DNA of 4,805 bases from a virus (taxonomy: Duplodnaviria > Heunggongvirae > Uroviricota > Caudoviricetes): the IMG/VR virus record IMGVR_UViG_3300014539_000096. The stretch is one strand, 5' to 3'. Positions 1-4,805 of the stretch are shown here, piece by piece. The translations under genes were made by a program, and so were the position numbers. Each line of letters starts with the position of its first letter. Position 1 is the stretch's first letter. The notes beneath the pieces were generated by a model. That model worked only from the letters and a program-made list of their open reading frames with translations. It was not told the DNA's origin and ran no database searches.

Positions 1-59
1 ACAGATCATTCACCAATGGTCCCCCTTCGTTTACATTAGCCACAATTGAATATGGGTAA

Positions 60-839
60 ATGACGATGAATTCATTCGAGCGAAGGAATAAGATCATCCA
101 ATTAGTGAATGAACAGGGAACCGTGCTTGTTCAGGATCTGGCGGGAGTATTTGCTGCCTCGGAAGCGACAATCCGTGCCGATTTGCGCTTTCTCGAACAA
201 AAAGGCGTGGTTACGCGCTTTCATGGCGGTGCGGCGAAAATAATGTCCGGTAATAGTGAAACCGAGACCCAGGAAGTCGGGTTTAAAGAGCGATTTCAGC
301 TCGCCAGCGCGCCGAAAAACAGAATAGCGCAGGCGGCAGTCAAAATGATCCATGAAGGGATGACCGTTATTCTCGACAGCGGAAGTACCACAATGCTTAT
401 CGCCGAAGGATTAATGACCGCCAAAAATATCACGGTGATTACCAACAGTCTCCCGGCAGCGTTTGCCCTTTCCGAAAATAAAGACATTACTCTGGTCGTC
501 TGTGGTGGCACGGTCCGCCATAAAACGCGCTCGATGCATGGTTCCATTGCCGAGCGTTCATTGCAGGATATTAATGCCGATTTAATGTTTGTCGGTGCTG
601 ATGGTATTGATGCGGTTAATGGTATTACGACCTTTAATGAAGGTTATTCGATTAGCGGTGCGATGGTCACCGCCGCTAATAAAGTGATTGCCGTTCTCGA
701 TTCATCGAAATTTAACCGTCGCGGTTTTAATCAGGTACTGCCAATCGAAAAAATTGACATTATTATTACCGATGATGCTGTATCAGAGGTGGATAAACTG
801 GCATTGCAGAAGACACGGGTAAAATTAATTACGGTGTAG
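60..839 (+). CDS. gatR: DeoR-family transcriptional repressor, galactitol-operon regulator GatR-like (intact, 259 aa)
   Basis: Full-length ORF. The N-terminal region fits a DeoR-type HTH domain and the C-terminal part (DSGSTT, VVCGG motifs) fits a DeoR sugar-phosphate-binding domain. The protein is recognised from memory as GatR. Convergent with yegS, as in the E. coli gat locus. An alternative start at ATG 66 (MNSFERR) is possible; neither start has a strong Shine-Dalgarno. Confidence 0.8.
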   Translation: MTMNSFERRNKIIQLVNEQGTVLVQDLAGVFAASEATIRADLRFLEQKGVVTRFHGGAAKIMSGNSETETQEVGFKERFQLASAPKNRIAQAAVKMIHEGMTVILDSGSTTMLIAEGLMTAKNITVITNSLPAAFALSENKDITLVVCGGTVRHKTRSMHGSIAERSLQDINADLMFVGADGIDAVNGITTFNEGYSISGAMVTAANKVIAVLDSSKFNRRGFNQVLPIEKIDIIITDDAVSEVDKLALQKTRVKLITV

Positions 840-850
840 TATTGTTCTGT

Positions 851-884
851 ATGCCGGATAAGGTATTTACACCGCATCCGGCAT
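851..884. repeat. REP-type imperfect palindrome in the convergent gatR/yegS gap
   Basis: ATGCCGGATAAGG...CCGCATCCGGCAT has perfect 9-bp outer arms (851-859 and 876-884) with a mismatched inner stem, the GCCGGATG/CATCCGGC signature typical of enterobacterial REP units. It lies between two convergent stop codons (839 and 921), so it may act as a bidirectional terminator or mRNA stabiliser. Confidence 0.6.
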
Positions 885-920
885 TTCGGATTCTCCCTGG
901 TTCAAGAGAGAATAGTTTGA

Positions 921-1820
921 TTAACGCAATAATGGACAATCTGGTGGTAATCGACAACGCAACGCCGCCGGAAGTATTTCAATATGAAAGTTTTGTCCGC
1001 TCAACGGTTCGCCATCAAGATTAAAAGTGATTTCGTGTGGGGCTTGTATATCAAACCACGACGAAGCGCCTTCGATAATATTCGGGTTATCTTCGTCAGA
1101 TTTTAAGGTTGATACGAGAGCCGGAAGAATTTCATCGCCGGTAAAAATGCGCAGTTGCAGCAAGCCATCGTTAATTAACGCGTTCGGACACAATTGCTGA
1201 CCGCCACCGGCCTGACGCCCGTTACCAATACCAATGACCAGGGCGTCACCTTGCCAGTGAAAGTTTTCACCGCGGATTTCACAACGGTCCGGTTGCAGAG
1301 TATCCATGCGCATTAAGCCATGAATGATGTAAGAGACGCCACCCAGCGCGGCTTTTAATTTTTCCGGCGTTTCTGTGGTAATACGCGTCCCAAATCCGCC
1401 TGTCGCCATATTAATAAAACAGGTTTGTTTGTTGACCTGCGCCATATCTATCGCAATGGCGTTACCGGCAATTGCCAGTTTCAGCGCCTTATCCAGTGCC
1501 TCAGGAATCCCTACACTGGTGGCAAAATCATTGGCGGTTCCTAATGGCAAAATTCCCAGCGCGGGTATTTCATCCCCCTCACACTGAATCAACGCCGTAG
1601 AAACTTCATTAATGGTGCCATCGCCACCACCGGCAATCACCGTTGCGACGCCCAACTTCCGGGCCTCCTCTACATATCGTGCGGCATCGCCTTTCTCCCA
1701 GGTGACCCGCACATGGATCGTCATTCCTTCCTCACGCAACAGCATAATTGCTTCGCGCAAGGGTAGATTGTCAGTACTTTTGCCATTAAGAATCAGTAAG
1801 CTGGCGGGAAATTCTGCCNN
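921..1820 (-). CDS. yegS: lipid kinase YegS (diacylglycerol-kinase catalytic-domain family)
   Basis: The track ORF 921-1760 begins at an internal Met. The frame stays open upstream (…[25 protein letters not shown]…) to codon 1818-1820, which reads NNG on this strand and is consistent with ATG. The GGDGT nucleotide-binding motif ([11 protein letters not shown]) is present. Length would be 299 aa if the start is at 1820. Confidence 0.85.
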
Positions 1821-1828
1821 NNNNNNNN
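1819..1828. other. run of 10 N (assembly gap or masked bases)
   Basis: Literal nnnnnnnnnn in the sequence. It overlaps the predicted yegS start codon and its ribosome-binding site. Confidence 1.
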
Positions 1829-2234
1829 TGATCGTATGTGCCTTTATGATTGGTCTGTAGATAGTGTAGAGCAGAAAACAAAAGGTGGAGTCAGAACAGG
1901 ATGAAAGTCGGAGGATAAAAAGTCAGTTCAAGTATGGAGGATTCAGTGGTTACCACCAGGAGCTTGCAATGGGGACAGCGAATATTAACGGTAACCACCG
2001 ATAAATTTCAAAAAAGAGCATATACCTAATATTCAACTAAACAGTGGCATCTTCAATATAATATATTAAAGCCCCCATGGAGTTACCCTGAAGGGCCTCA
2101 ATGTCCGTAATTCCTACTTATGTAGGAAATGTTGTACAGAACATTTATTATAATCCTATTCAATTATAATAATCATGCCGTTATTATATTTAAACACTAG
2201 AGAGTGTCGTTGGTATTTAATGGGGGAAGGTGAG
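1829..2234. promoter_or_regulatory. divergent yegS/yegR intergenic control region (AT-rich, several palindromes, -10-like hexamers)
   Basis: About 400 bp between two divergent start codons. TATAAT hexamers at 2149-2154 and 2165-2170; palindromes TTCCTAC-N4-GTAGGAA (2111-2128) and AAATGTT-N6-AACATTT (2127-2146); 11-bp palindrome GTGGTTACCAC (1947-1957). No transcription start sites can be assigned by eye. Confidence 0.35.
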
Positions 2235-2552
2235 ATGAAAAAGATAGCTGCTATATCATTAATTAGTATTTTTCTTATATCTGGTTGTGCTGTGCATAAT
2301 GATGAAACAAGTATCGGTAAATTTGGTCTTGCATATAAAAGTAATATTCAGCGTAAACTCGATAACCAATACTACACCGAAGCCGAAGCTTCTTTAGCCA
2401 GGGGTAGAATATCTGGTGCAGAAAATATAGTAAAAAATGATGCAGCCCATTTCTGTGTTACTCAGGGCAAAAAAATGCAGATAGTTGACCTGAAGACAGA
2501 AGGTGCAGGATTACATGGCGTCGCTCGTCTGACATTCAAATGTGGAGAGTGA
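2235..2552 (+). CDS. yegR: small predicted lipoprotein of unknown function (105 aa), YegR-like
   Basis: Start chosen at ATG 2235 (MKKIAAISLISIFLISGC...), preceded by GGGGGAAGG. The N-terminus is a signal peptide with a lipobox (ISG-C) and Ala at +2, suggesting Lol sorting to the outer membrane. Two further Cys residues are present. The 20-codon 5' extension in the track (from 2175) lacks a ribosome-binding site. The symbol is assigned from memory of the K-12 gene order next to yegS. Confidence 0.7.
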   Translation: MKKIAAISLISIFLISGCAVHNDETSIGKFGLAYKSNIQRKLDNQYYTEAEASLARGRISGAENIVKNDAAHFCVTQGKKMQIVDLKTEGAGLHGVARLTFKCGE

Positions 2553-2614
2553 GAATATTTTTTGGTAAGCATCAAACATGCGCGTTCTGGTTGTGCTTAG
2601 CCGGAACCTGTGCG

Positions 2615-2647
2615 AGCACGATGCCGTTACGTGAAAGGCATCGTGCT
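2615..2647. repeat. perfect 11-bp inverted repeat (stem-loop) downstream of yegR
   Basis: AGCACGATGCC (2615-2625), an 11-nt loop, then GGCATCGTGCT (2637-2647). No U-run follows on either strand, so it is not a canonical intrinsic terminator. Confidence 0.6.
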
Positions 2648-2710
2648 ATGAAGGGAGATTCTATCGATGTGGTCAATGGAAGACGGTGACCAGGGATAGG
2701 GCTTATGCAT

Positions 2711-2737
2711 AAAAAATAAGCCCGTGTAAGGGAGATT
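2711..2737. other. P2-type att core sequence (attL of the prophage)
   Basis: AAAAAATAAGCCCGTGTAAGGGAGATT matches my recollection of the 27-bp P2 attP/attB core. It sits 79 bp beyond the int stop codon, at the point where gene content changes from host to phage. Confidence 0.75.
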
Positions 2738-2816
2738 TAGGGTGTCACCAGTAGGGGCTTTCAACGGTACAATGCGGGTTTGAGCGGCATAAATTACCAC
2801 TGAAAGCCCTTAAACG

Positions 2817-3830
2817 TTACTCTACTGTGGACACTGTGTGGACACACTCGACCTCAGTACCACCTCTTAGCGGATTAAGAGAAATGGCGTCCTGAAGGTA
2901 CTCTGGCGCAAAATGAGCGTAAACCATAGTTTGCTCAATCCGCGTGTGACCTAGTATCCGTTGTAGCGTGATAATACTTCCTCCATTAATCATGAAATGA
3001 GTGGCAAAGCTGTGCCTTAGTGCATGTGTAGCTTGCCCCATTGGCAAATCCGGTTTTATTGCTTTCATTGTTCGTCTGAAGCGAGGGTAATCAGCATCAG
3101 GGAATAAAAAACCTCGTTTGTTATCCGCGATCATTTTGGCAACAGCCTCTGAGATCGGGACGGTGCGTGGTTTGTTTGTTTTCGTTTTAACAAACGTGAC
3201 GCGGTTATGGATGATATTTTCTGCTTTCAAACGAGCTGCTTCTCCCCAACGTGCTCCAGTACTCAGGCAAAGAATCGCAATCTTTTTGTTGTCGCCGTCA
3301 AGAGCAGCAAGCAGTAAGGCAATTTCTTCCTGCGTGAGATAGCCTGTGTCTGGTTTTTCCTCCTTAAGCCTTTTTGTCCCTCTGATAGGGTGCTCACCAA
3401 AGAATAACTCCGCTTCAATCAGGGCTGTAAACATGCCGCTAATACATGTTAAATCACGATTGATACTCGAAGGTTTAATACCCTGACTTCTTCGGGTAGC
3501 GCAGTACTGGCTGATAAGCGATTTCGTAATTTGAAATGCGCATGGGTCATTCGTTATTTTTGTGAAGATTTCAATTTTTCCAAGATTAGATTTCCCATGC
3601 TCTTCGTGTTTACCCTTTAAATCCCACCAGATCTGTGTCAGCTCCGACAGACGTCGCTTGTCTGTTGGTTTTGATAGCCATTCTTTATTGTGGTGGTTGT
3701 ACAACGTGTATTTCGCGAAAGCGACAGCTTCGCTTTTCTTATCAAACTTCCTACGGATGCGTTTTCCATTACGTCCAGTAGGGCGGATGTCCACTTCATA
3801 TCGACCATCATCGAGTTTTTTGATTGCCAT
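2817..3830 (-). CDS. int: phage P2-type tyrosine integrase (337 aa)
   Basis: Full-length ORF with GGAGGG 7 nt upstream of the ATG. C-terminal catalytic signature of tyrosine recombinases (ARWGEA... HALRHSFATH... LGHTRIEQTMVYAH). The sequence is recognised as P2 Int. Confidence 0.95.
   Translation of the reverse strand: MAIKKLDDGRYEVDIRPTGRNGKRIRRKFDKKSEAVAFAKYTLYNHHNKEWLSKPTDKRRLSELTQIWWDLKGKHEEHGKSNLGKIEIFTKITNDPCAFQITKSLISQYCATRRSQGIKPSSINRDLTCISGMFTALIEAELFFGEHPIRGTKRLKEEKPDTGYLTQEEIALLLAALDGDNKKIAILCLSTGARWGEAARLKAENIIHNRVTFVKTKTNKPRTVPISEAVAKMIADNKRGFLFPDADYPRFRRTMKAIKPDLPMGQATHALRHSFATHFMINGGSIITLQRILGHTRIEQTMVYAHFAPEYLQDAISLNPLRGGTEVECVHTVSTVE
2826..2844. promoter_or_regulatory. tandem direct repeat TGTGGACA-N3-TGTGGACA, candidate Int arm-type binding sites
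   Basis: Exact octamer at 2826-2833 and 2837-2844 with 11-bp periodicity, inside the last codons of int and about 90 bp from the att core. From memory, P2 Int arm sites are direct repeats of this type. Confidence 0.5.
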
Positions 3831-3884
3831 CAGAAAACCCTCCGAGTGGTGTGTTTTTTTGCGACTACTAATCGCTTTTTTCGT

Positions 3885-3905
3885 GGTGGCTGAAATTTAG
3901 CCACC
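3885..3905. repeat. perfect 7-bp inverted repeat in the C-int intergenic spacer
   Basis: GGTGGCT (3885-3891), loop GAAATTT, then AGCCACC (3899-3905). On the C-int transcript the hairpin is followed by an A-run rather than a U-run, so it is not a typical terminator. It may be a processing or regulatory structure. Confidence 0.4.
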
Positions 3906-3945
3906 AATAGTAGGCACTTGTGATGAATATATTCACGATGAATTG

Positions 3946-4245
3946 TTAACCAGTCTTTTGACCGGAGTGGGGCGACGTTGTTTCGTTTTGCCCAAAGTGT
4001 GCGAGAGCGGGCGCAATTTGCCCGGACTCAGGAGCGATCTGATTGGTCATGAACCATAAAGTGTATTTGGTGAATTGTGGGGTCTGCAGGATGTTCATCA
4101 TGACATCTGTTGGAGGTGTTGAACGACCACTTTCATAGTAACTCAGCGTGCCATACGGAACCCCTGTTAAATCAGCAAGTTGTTGTCTGCTCAAATACTC
4201 TGATTTTCGCATTAAGACTATCTTCTCGCTTATCGTGTTTGACAT
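3946..4245 (-). CDS. C: P2-type immunity repressor C (99 aa)
   Basis: Full-length ORF recognised as the P2 C repressor. It is transcribed leftward upstream of int, and its start codon overlaps the Pe -35 hexamer. Confidence 0.9.
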   Translation of the reverse strand: MSNTISEKIVLMRKSEYLSRQQLADLTGVPYGTLSYYESGRSTPPTDVMMNILQTPQFTKYTLWFMTNQIAPESGQIAPALAHFGQNETTSPHSGQKTG

Positions 4246-4267
4246 GGTGTTTAGATCTCAATAGTAT
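4239..4267 (+). promoter_or_regulatory. candidate early promoter Pe (TTGACA, 17-bp spacer, TAGTAT)
   Basis: Consensus -35 TTGACA at 4239-4244, a 17-bp spacer, and -10 TAGTAT at 4262-4267, oriented toward cox. The -10 lies between the two operator repeats. Confidence 0.6.
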
Positions 4268-4280
4268 TTAGTTTAGATGT
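4249..4280. promoter_or_regulatory. C-repressor operator: two direct-repeat half-sites spaced 22 bp
   Basis: GTTTAGATCT (4249-4258) and GTTTAGATGT (4271-4280) match at 9 of 10 positions and their starts are 22 bp apart, flanking the Pe -10. This agrees with the published P2 operator arrangement as I recall it. A third partial copy, TGTTTAG, is at 4285-4291. Confidence 0.65.
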
Positions 4281-4316
4281 AGATTGTTTAGTGCTTGGAT
4301 GTGGGCACTAAAAGGC

Positions 4317-4322
4317 ATTATA
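4317..4322 (-). promoter_or_regulatory. candidate Pc -10 hexamer (TATAAT on the minus strand)
   Basis: A perfect TATAAT on the minus strand, facing Pe so that the two transcripts would overlap by a few tens of bp. No good -35 is found at 16-18 bp spacing. Confidence 0.4.
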
Positions 4323-4422
4323 AGACATTAAACGCAATTCATGAGGGCTATCCGTCAGCCACGCGTTGTGTTTCCTGCCAGTCAGTCTTTGAAGCAAAAA
4401 ACAAGCATTACCGGAGAATGGC

Positions 4423-4698
4423 ATGAGTATTCGTATCGAAATTGGCGAACGTTATGTCGTTACCAGTGACAGCTTTCAGTTTATTCTCCACGAGAAAAAG
4501 AGAGCGGAAAGCGGTAAAAACGCCGGTCAGGAATGGCTGTCGGTGGTTGGTTATTACCCGAAATTAAGCCAGCTCGTTTCCGGCCTGATGCATCACGATA
4601 TTCTGACCGGAAGCGCAAAGTCTTTTGCTGATTTAAACGCGCAGGTTGAGCAACTCAGCAAGCGTTGTTCAGAGGCTTTTGGCTCATATGGCCGTTAA
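4423..4698 (+). CDS. cox: P2-type Cox protein (excision directionality factor and Pc repressor, 91 aa)
   Basis: Full-length ORF recognised as P2 Cox, with GGAGA 5 nt upstream of the ATG. It is the first gene of the rightward early operon. Confidence 0.9.
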   Translation: MSIRIEIGERYVVTSDSFQFILHEKKRAESGKNAGQEWLSVVGYYPKLSQLVSGLMHHDILTGSAKSFADLNAQVEQLSKRCSEAFGSYGR

Positions 4699-4740
4699 AG
4701 CCTCCGGGCGTTTTGTCCCTCCGTCAGCATTTGCCGCAGG

Positions 4741-4763
4741 CACCGGTAAGGCGTTTACCGGTG
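4741..4763. repeat. perfect 9-bp inverted repeat downstream of cox
   Basis: CACCGGTAA (4741-4749), loop GGCGT, then TTACCGGTG (4755-4763). No clear U-run follows. Confidence 0.5.
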
Positions 4764-4766
4764 CTT

Positions 4767-4805
4767 ATGCATGGAACGCGCCACGCGAGGCTGTCGGGCG
4801 CGAAA
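4767..4805 (+). CDS. possible 5' end of the next early-operon ORF (truncated by window edge)
   Basis: ATG at 4767 opens a frame (MHGTRHARLSGAK...) that runs to the window end. An in-frame GTG at 4761 and an out-of-frame ATG at 4771 are alternatives. The ribosome-binding site is weak and the protein is not recognised. Confidence 0.25.
   Translation, partial: MHGTRHARLSGAK

What the first reader, a model, noticed from the sequence alone, without database searches (positions are those of the whole stretch)
2553..2850. Host-prophage junction: complete P2-type att core next to yegR, the locus I recall as holding a decayed P2 remnant in K-12
The 27-mer at 2711-2737 sits 79 bp past the int stop. 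To its left, gene content and composition are host (yegR, yegS, gatR). From memory, E. coli K-12 carries only ogr-like and D-fragment remnants of a P2-like phage next to yegR. Here the int-C-cox end is intact with full-length ORFs and a consensus Pe, so this may be a complete and possibly inducible prophage at the same site.
Basis: partly seen in the sequence, partly recalled or inferred. Interest (0 to 1): 0.5.

Follow-up and report, generated by a model that had tools for sequence, protein, structure and literature searches.

The report
Junction of a decayed P2 prophage
The 27-base sequence really is the phage P2 attachment core, marking where a P2 prophage joins the E. coli chromosome next to yegR, but the prophage is a roughly 5-kb dead remnant that has lost its excision gene, so this is an ordinary, already known kind of feature.

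Summary
Window 2711-2737 is identical to the annotated 27-bp attP core of phage P2. DNA to its right is P2 at 99.3% identity: Cox-binding region, P' arm Int sites, int, C, Pe/Pc. DNA to its left is the E. coli gatR-yegS-yegR backbone. The core is also the last 27 nt of the CyaR sRNA gene, the classical P2 site.

The interpretation "intact int-C-cox, possibly complete and inducible" fails. The 91-aa ORF at 4423-4698 is P2 Orf83 (DUF5405), not Cox; the two happen to be the same length. A 1,695-bp deletion with its junction at 4346-4350 removes cox, orf78, B, orf80, orf81 and most of orf82.

A near-identical public contig (GCA_050713875.1, 2 SNPs) shows the rest. A second deletion of about 26.8 kb joins A' to T'. 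Then come U, D, ogr, the P arm, a second exact core, and intact cyaR and yegQ. The whole element is 5,070 bp.

It is a cryptic P2 remnant with both att junctions intact, locked in because it lacks Cox. It probably still confers P2 immunity through C. About 14% of complete E. coli genomes carry P2-type int-C at this junction. Low interest.

The parts
60..839 (+). gatR (DeoR-family galactitol repressor), host backbone
   Evidence: ORF; annotated as a DeoR/GlpR regulator in the matching genome. Corresponds to K-12 gatR, which is split by IS3 there.
921..1829 (-). yegS (lipid kinase), host. Its start codon is interrupted by a run of 10 N at 1819-1828
   Evidence: In L008 the N-run corresponds to a single base A of the ATG.
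2235..2552 (+). yegR, the last host gene before the junction
   Evidence: 105-aa YegR annotated in the matching genomes and in K-12.
2553..2710 (.). Host-side arm of the junction (B arm). Contains a perfect 11-bp hairpin (2615-2625 / 2637-2647) and a fossil P2 P-arm-like segment (2664-2693)
   Evidence: The stretch 2401-2737 is 100% identical in phage-free sites of the form yegR-flank-core-cyaR-yegQ. Hairpin. Fossil.
2711..2737 (.). 27-bp P2 att core, equal to the last 27 nt of CyaR read on the minus strand
   Evidence: Exact match to annotated P2 attP 24356-24382. The same 27-mer ends the Rfam CyaR match at the other junction in L001 and L008.
2754..2827 (.). Cox-binding region of the P' side, placed by coordinate transfer from P2 24399-24472
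   Evidence: P2 annotation. There are no nucleotide differences from P2 in this stretch; the first mismatch is at 2846.
2825..2851 (.). P' arm Int arm-type sites: TGTGGACA at 2826-2833 and 2837-2844
   Evidence: P2 annotation 24470-24496. Repeats located. They match the consensus tgTGGaCa given in PMC3448106. Two mismatches to P2, at 2846 and 2851, both outside the octamers.
2817..3830 (-). int, P2-type tyrosine integrase, 337 aa, full length
   Evidence: Four aa differences from P2 Int: E39A, E161D, A327V, S329C. Pfam Int_N plus Phage_integrase.
3946..4245 (-). C, immunity repressor, 99 aa
   Evidence: Identical to P2 C. Pfam HTH_3.
4239..4278 (+). Early promoter Pe (-35 at 4239-4244, -10 at 4262-4267) with C operator half-sites O1 (4249-4256) and O2 (4271-4278), both GTTTAGAT
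   Evidence: Coordinate transfer from P2 annotation. No mismatches to P2 here. Promoter scan gives TTGACA-17-TAGTAT, 10 of 12.
4317..4342 (-). Pc promoter for the C-int transcript (-10 at 4317-4322, -35 at 4337-4342)
   Evidence: Coordinate transfer from P2 25962-25987; sequence identical to P2.
4346..4350 (.). Junction of deletion 1. P2 25995 is joined to P2 27691, a loss of 1,695 bp, with microhomology GGCT(A). cox, orf78, B, orf80, orf81 and the 5' two-thirds of orf82 are missing
   Evidence: Two-piece alignments to P2 and to an intact-end prophage. Junction sequences. No cox ATG follows.
4346..4426 (+). 3' remnant of orf82 (TraR/DksA-type zinc finger), truncated
   Evidence: Aligns to P2 27691-27772.
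   Evidence: Two aa differences from P2 Orf83 and no resemblance to the P2 Cox sequence. Pfam DUF5405, E 2.4e-14.
4688..4805 (+). 5' end of gene A (replication nickase), running off the window
   Evidence: Aligns to P2 A, which starts at 28034. In L008, A is cut after about 245 nt by deletion 2.

Best explanation
Window 2553-2850 is the int-side junction (host arm, core, P' arm) of a P2 prophage integrated at the classical E. coli site, the 3' end of the CyaR sRNA gene between yegQ and yegR. P2 Int recombined the 27-bp attP core with the identical 27 bp that end cyaR. This left one core copy here, next to the Cox-binding region, the two TGTGGACA Int arm sites and int. The other copy is at the ogr side, where it rebuilds an intact cyaR.

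The prophage has since decayed by two microhomology-mediated deletions. Deletion 1 (1,695 bp, inside the window) removes cox through most of orf82. Deletion 2 (about 26.8 kb, just beyond the window) joins A' to T'. What remains is a 5.07-kb cryptic element with the order attL, int, C, Pe/Pc, 'orf82, orf83, A', 'T, U, D, ogr, attR.

Shown: identity of the core and arms, gene content, both deletions, and the second core with cyaR. Inferred: without Cox, the recombination directionality factor, the element cannot excise by itself. Without B, A, cos and the structural genes it cannot replicate or make particles. C expressed from Pc probably still represses Pe and gives immunity to P2-immunity phages. 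Int plus Cox supplied in trans could still excise a 5-kb circle.
For: The core is exact, unique in the window, and equals the annotated P2 attP. The right flank matches P2 24383-25995 at 99.3%. The left flank is identical to phage-free sites of the form yegR-flank-core-cyaR-yegQ in many E. coli genomes. CyaR (RF00112, 100.7 bits) ends in the core at the ogr-side junction in L001 and L008. Of 5,426 complete E. coli genomes, 736 match at least 80% of the window and so carry P2-type int-C next to yegR.

Deletion 1 is shown by two-piece alignments to P2 and to strain Z217-2, by the junction sequence, and by Pfam DUF5405 rather than Phage_Cox for ORF 4423-4698. The remnant architecture comes from L008, GCA_050713875.1, which matches the window apart from 2 SNPs and the N-run. 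L008 shows the A'-T' fusion, intact U (159 aa), D (387 aa) and ogr (72 aa), a second exact core at 13332-13358, and a total element of 5,070 bp. Cox as the controller of recombination directionality is stated in PMC3448106.
Against: The rest of the element is read from a near-identical contig, not from the window's own source. That source could in principle differ beyond position 4805. Neither deletion junction is found in 5,426 complete E. coli genomes, GTDB representative genomes, IMG/VR or JGI metagenomes, so the architecture rests on two closely related assemblies. Immunity, Int expression and inability to excise are inferred from P2 biology and were not tested. Deletion 1 ends only 4-8 bp upstream of the Pc -35, which might alter Pc activity.
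Confidence: 0.9

Rival explanations
1. One reading: a complete, possibly inducible P2 prophage with an intact int-C-cox switch at the yegR site.
For: The core, P' arm, int, C and Pe/Pc are intact and nearly identical to P2. Many E. coli genomes carry larger P2 prophages at this junction, for example L006 and L014.
Against: cox, orf78, B, orf80, orf81 and most of orf82 are absent from the window itself. The supposed cox is DUF5405 Orf83. The near-identical contig has only 5,070 bp between the cores, with no cos, head or lysis genes. From established knowledge, P2 is not SOS-inducible.
Confidence: 0.02
2. The internal deletion is an assembly artefact or chimeric join, and the real genome carries an ordinary P2 early region.
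For: The junction is absent from every public collection scanned. The window contains a 10-N scaffold-type gap at 1819-1828. The one matching record is a draft contig.
Against: The window and L008 differ by 2 SNPs and by the N-run, so they are two separate assemblies, yet they share the identical junction. Assembly mis-joins occur at long shared repeats. Here the overlap is 4-5 bp, as is typical of illegitimate recombination, and the second deletion has the same signature, CCGGT. Other genomes show different deletions in P2 prophages at the same locus: L001, L012, L015 and K-12.
Confidence: 0.05
3. An isolated int-C fragment with no partner site, that is, no second core and therefore not a bounded element.
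For: The window itself contains only one core copy.
Against: The near-identical contig has an exact second core 5 kb away. It is preceded by D, ogr and an intact P arm, and followed by cyaR and yegQ.
Confidence: 0.03

Closest known systems
Bacteriophage P2 attP and P2 lysogens at the preferred E. coli site (locI of E. coli C; the name and its history are from my own knowledge of Barreiro and Haggard-Ljungquist 1992, which I could not retrieve)
   Same: Identical 27-bp core. Identical Cox-binding region. The same TGTGGACA arm repeats. Int with 4 aa differences and C identical. The same Pe/O1/O2/Pc. The same chromosomal position as P2-type prophages in 736 of 5,426 complete E. coli genomes.
   Different: Here the prophage body is reduced to 5.07 kb by two deletions, and cox is missing.
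E. coli K-12 cryptic prophage PR-X (ogrK, yegZ) between cyaR and yegR
   Same: The same locus and the same orientation. The ogr-side junction, with P arm and full core ending cyaR, is retained. It is a decayed P2-like prophage.
   Different: K-12 keeps only 641 bp of P2-like DNA: the last 213 bp of D, then ogr, the P arm and the core. Its yegR-side core is cut after 18 nt and fused to D', so it has no int, no C and no intact attL. The element here keeps both complete cores plus int, C, orf83, U, D and ogr.
Other partly deleted P2 prophages at the same locus (strain Z217-2 L001; L012; L015 CP055918)
   Same: The same attL, int and C, with independent internal deletions.
   Different: All of these retain cox-B-orf80-83. 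Their deletions lie elsewhere: L015 runs from A to D, L012 from O to T, and L001 has several. None shares either junction with this element.

Membership tests
P2-type attachment junction (attL, int side) | 27-bp core identical to the P2 attP core | tested here: met
   27 of 27 match to NC_001895 24356-24382, annotated attP.
P2-type attachment junction (attL, int side) | Core adjacent to a P2-type tyrosine integrase gene, with phage DNA on one side only | tested here: met
   The int stop is 79 bp from the core. P2 identity starts at 2710. The left side is host DNA and is identical in empty sites.
P2-type attachment junction (attL, int side) | Arm-type Int binding direct repeats (consensus tgTGGaCa) in the P' arm | tested here: met
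   TGTGGACA at 2826-2833 and 2837-2844. Consensus from PMC3448106. P2 annotation of the P' arm.
P2-type attachment junction (attL, int side) | Second core copy at the other prophage end, next to D-ogr and the P arm/IHF site | tested here: met
   Not within the window. In the near-identical contig L008 there is an exact core at 13332-13358, preceded by the P arm (TGTGGTCA and TGTGGACG) and followed by CyaR.
P2-type attachment junction (attL, int side) | Int/IHF/Cox-dependent recombination at the site | not testable with these tools
   Needs in vivo or in vitro excision assays.
Complete (plaque-forming) P2 prophage | cox present between Pe and B | tested here: not met
   1,695-bp deletion. No Phage_Cox ORF. 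ORF 4423-4698 is DUF5405.
Complete (plaque-forming) P2 prophage | Replication genes B and A full length | tested here: not met
   B is deleted in the window. A is truncated after about 245 nt in L008 and fused out of frame to T'.
Complete (plaque-forming) P2 prophage | cos plus head, lysis and tail gene blocks (Q through T); about 33 kb between the cores | tested here: not met
   L008 has 5,070 bp between and including the cores. Only 'T, U, D and ogr remain of the late region.
K-12-type PR-X remnant | yegR-side core truncated and fused directly to D', with no int or C | tested here: not met
   The window has the full core plus int and C. K-12 alignment.

The most novel reading that the evidence does not exclude
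The 5-kb element may not be mere debris. It could be a retained mini-island that keeps exactly the parts useful to the host or mobilisable by a helper. These are both intact att junctions, int, the immunity repressor C with Pc/Pe, and ogr. It would give immunity to P2-immunity phages and could be excised as a circle when a heteroimmune P2-like phage supplies Cox.

A related reading concerns the 'empty' E. coli site. Its fossil P arm at 2664-2693 suggests the empty site is itself the ogr-side junction of a much older P2-like prophage. In that case the CyaR terminator half in all E. coli would be phage-derived.
Probability: 0.15. Interest if true: 0.3.

Novelty: already known. Interest (0 to 1): 0.1.

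Why it matters
It matters little beyond correct annotation. The junction is the textbook P2 attachment site and is shared by about one in seven complete E. coli genomes. The useful outcome is the correction. This locus holds a non-excisable 5-kb P2 remnant lacking cox, not a live prophage, so it should not be flagged as an inducible phage. It adds one more independent decay state to a locus where K-12 and other strains show different deletions, which illustrates stepwise prophage erosion by microhomology-mediated deletion. The retained C gene predicts a testable phenotype, immunity to P2.

Tried and rejected
1. I scanned for the deletion-1 junction (36-mer) in GTDB representative genomes, IMG/VR and JGI metagenomes. 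All three gave 0 hits. A BLAST of both deletion junctions against 5,426 complete E. coli genomes found no record spanning either one. The source was only reached through an exact-protein look-up of Orf83.

2. Rfam on the window found no CyaR, as expected, because only its last 27 nt are present. The single weak hit is a REP-like palindrome at 852-887.

3. Composition profiling gave no junction signal.

4. RNA folding of the minus strand across the core and P' side showed no significant structure (z = +0.83). The terminator scan found nothing at the junction.

5. I could not retrieve Barreiro and Haggard-Ljungquist 1992, De Lay and Gottesman 2009, or Karlsson et al. 2006. Statements about 'locI' naming and P2 non-inducibility therefore rest on my own knowledge.

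6. I considered that the prophage might be the E. coli B-type heteroimmune defective P2 relative (the P2 Hy dis source). I rejected this because C is identical to P2 C.

7. I considered a satellite or PICI-like element and rejected it. There is no cos and there are no satellite genes; all the DNA is colinear with P2.

Full report
**Observation**

The window encodes gatR (60-839, +), yegS (921-1829, -) and yegR (2235-2552, +). These are followed by a 337-aa integrase (2817-3830, -), a 99-aa HTH repressor (3946-4245, -) and a 91-aa ORF (4423-4698, +). The 27-mer AAAAAATAAGCCCGTGTAAGGGAGATT occurs once, at 2711-2737. No match appears in 200 shuffles even when 3 mismatches are allowed. It is base-for-base the annotated attP core of phage P2, NC_001895 24356-24382.

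**What lies on each side**

To the right, window 2710-4350 is colinear with P2 24355-25995, with 12 mismatches in 1,641 nt. Transferring the P2 annotation places these features:
- Cox-binding region at 2754-2827, with no mismatch to P2.
- P' arm Int sites at 2825-2851, with TGTGGACA at 2826-2833 and 2837-2844. This matches the consensus tgTGGaCa in PMC3448106.
- int, with 4 aa changes from P2.
- C, identical to P2 C.
- Pe, TTGACA-17-TAGTAT at 4239-4267.
- Operator half-sites O1 and O2, both GTTTAGAT, at 4249-4256 and 4271-4278.
- Pc at 4317-4342.

To the left, the sequence is the E. coli backbone. A synthetic 'empty site' query was built from window 2401-2737 joined to the cyaR-yegQ side of L001. 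It matches many genomes at 100% over its full length in one piece. The 158 bp between yegR and the core are therefore present in phage-free sites.

At the far junction of related prophages the same 27 nt are the 3' end of the CyaR sRNA (RF00112, 100.7 bits). The site is thus the 3' half of the cyaR terminator. Integration leaves an intact cyaR at the ogr side and a displaced 27-nt copy at the int side, which is the copy in this window.

Of 5,426 complete E. coli genomes, 736 match at least 80% of the window and so carry P2-type int-C next to yegR.

**K-12 comparison**

MG1655 annotates cyaR, 'cryptic prophage PR-X', ogrK and the yegZ pseudogene between trhP (the current K-12 name for yegQ) and yegR. 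Alignment shows that K-12 retains P2-like DNA only from the last 213 bp of D through ogr and the P arm to a full core at the cyaR end. On the yegR side only the first 18 nt of the core survive (AAAAAAATAAGCCCGTGTA, with one extra A), fused directly to D'.

The best E. coli matches to the window are all two-piece alignments spanning 6,497 bp. Window 1-4350 and 4346-4805 map to P2 positions up to 25995 and from 27691 onward. The junction reads ...CAATTCATGAGGGCTA|TCCGTCAGCC..., with 4-5 bp of microhomology. The cox ATG, at P2 26005, would lie 10 bp beyond the breakpoint and is gone. Also gone are orf78, B, orf80, orf81 and two-thirds of orf82.

It differs from P2 Orf83 at 2 residues and hits Pfam DUF5405 (E 2.4e-14), not Phage_Cox. 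Cox and Orf83 are both 91 aa, which explains the mistake. Gene A begins at 4688 and runs off the window.

**The rest of the element**

The junction is absent from the complete E. coli genomes, GTDB representatives, IMG/VR and JGI metagenomes. An exact-protein look-up of Orf83 returned contig DBIYPT010000014.1 of GCA_050713875.1 (L008), which has the same C-to-orf83 spacing. Window 1-4805 equals L008 5588-10383 apart from 2 SNPs (window positions 36 and 1569) and the 10-N run, which stands for a single base of the yegS start codon. Two distinct assemblies therefore share deletion 1, which argues against an assembly artefact.

L008 continues as follows:
- A is cut about 245 nt in, at P2 28278, and joined to the tape-measure gene T at P2 21530.
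- The junction carries CCGGT microhomology at L008 10506-10510, about 125 bp past the window end.
- This deletion of about 26.8 kb removes the rest of A, the region around cos, and all head, lysis and most tail genes.
- Then follow 'T, U (159 aa), D (387 aa), ogr (72 aa) and an intact P arm (TGTGGTCA and TGTGGACG).
- Next come an exact second core at 13332-13358, then CyaR and yegQ.
- Including both cores the element is 5,070 bp.

Neither junction occurs in the complete-genome set. Other strains carry different deletions at the same locus: L001, L012, L015 and K-12.

**Mechanism**

Shown: the attL architecture (host arm, core, Cox sites, P' Int sites, int), the attR architecture, and the gene content.

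Inferred from established P2 biology:
- Cox controls recombination directionality (PMC3448106). Its requirement for excision comes from Lindahl and Sunshine 1972, cited in that paper.
- The element has the recombinase and both substrates but lacks the directionality factor, so it is locked in the chromosome unless Cox is supplied in trans.
- It cannot replicate (no B, truncated A) or be packaged (no cos and no capsid genes).
- C and Pc are intact, and Pe with O1/O2 is intact, so the host is probably immune to P2-immunity phages. Any Pe transcription would now read into 'orf82, orf83 and A'.
- The breakpoint lies 4-8 bp upstream of the Pc -35, and its effect on Pc is untested.
- From my own knowledge, P2 is also non-inducible by the SOS response, so 'inducible' would not have applied even to a complete copy.

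**Comparison and novelty**

The junction is a member of the P2 att family on every sequence criterion that could be tested. The element fails every test for a complete prophage. It differs from the K-12 remnant in keeping both cores, int and C. All of this is known biology, and the particular pair of deletions is a private lineage variant. Interest is low.

**Side observation**

The host arm contains a fossil of a P2 P arm:
- Window 2664-2693 reads TCGATGTGGTCAATG-GAAGACGGTGACCAG.
- P2 24293-24322, the start of the annotated P-arm Int site, reads TCGATGTGGTCAATGTGTGGAC-GTGACCAG.
- The local alignment score is 17, against a mean of 6.9, sd 1.0 and maximum 14 in 5,000 shuffles.
- It sits on the correct side of the core but 16 nt closer to it than in P2.
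- It is present in phage-free sites and in E. coli and Shigella representative genomes.

This suggests that the 'empty' site is itself the ogr-side scar of a much older P2-like integration.

Noticed in passing
window 2664-2693 (also 2652-2661): The host arm of the junction contains a P2 P-arm-like fossil: a 15-nt and an 8-nt exact match to the start of P2's annotated P-arm Int site. It lies on the correct side of the core but 16 nt closer to it. The last 10 nt of the core (AAGGGAGATT) are also repeated at 2652-2661. The fossil is present in phage-free sites, so the 'empty' attB may be the scar of an older P2-like prophage.
   Followed up: partly
window 2615-2647: A perfect 11-bp inverted repeat (AGCACGATGCC ... 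GGCATCGTGCT) lies 63 bp downstream of the yegR stop, with z = -2.4 on the plus strand and -3.3 on the minus strand. No T-run follows it. The stem is conserved in K-12. Its function is unknown; it may be a yegR transcript end.
   Followed up: partly
window 1819-1828: A run of 10 N interrupts the yegS start codon. In the near-identical contig L008 it corresponds to a single base (A on the plus strand). It looks like a scaffold gap or masking, not biology.
   Followed up: yes
window 852-887: A REP-type palindrome between gatR and yegS gives a weak sub-threshold Rfam hit to naRNA4 (30 bits against a gathering score of 59.5).
   Followed up: no
window 1950-2550: yegR and its upstream region are markedly AT-rich (GC 0.32-0.38, against about 0.47-0.52 for gatR and yegS). 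yegR may itself be horizontally acquired. Composition does not distinguish host from phage at the junction.
   Followed up: no
L003 (ON470606) 1-2670: The GenBank 'phage' record vB_EcoM-720R8 includes the host genes gatR, yegS and yegR, so it is a prophage excerpt with a host flank. It also carries a 169-bp AT-rich insertion 5 bp after the yegR stop that is absent from the window.
   Followed up: partly
L001 20000-39200; L012; L015: Other E. coli strains carry P2 prophages at the same junction with different, independent internal deletions and cargo. Examples are a DprA-like gene plus a hypothetical gene after A in Z217-2, and DUF4238, SIR2 or methylase/HEPN cargo in others. The locus is a graveyard of P2 decay states, and the position after A is a variable cargo slot.
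   Followed up: no
L004 (AY639599 'Phage TP'): The record named 'Bacteriophage TP ogr and putative protease' is in fact a K-12-type chromosomal remnant (yegR 3' end, truncated core, ogr, core, yegQ). It is not a phage genome fragment.
   Followed up: partly
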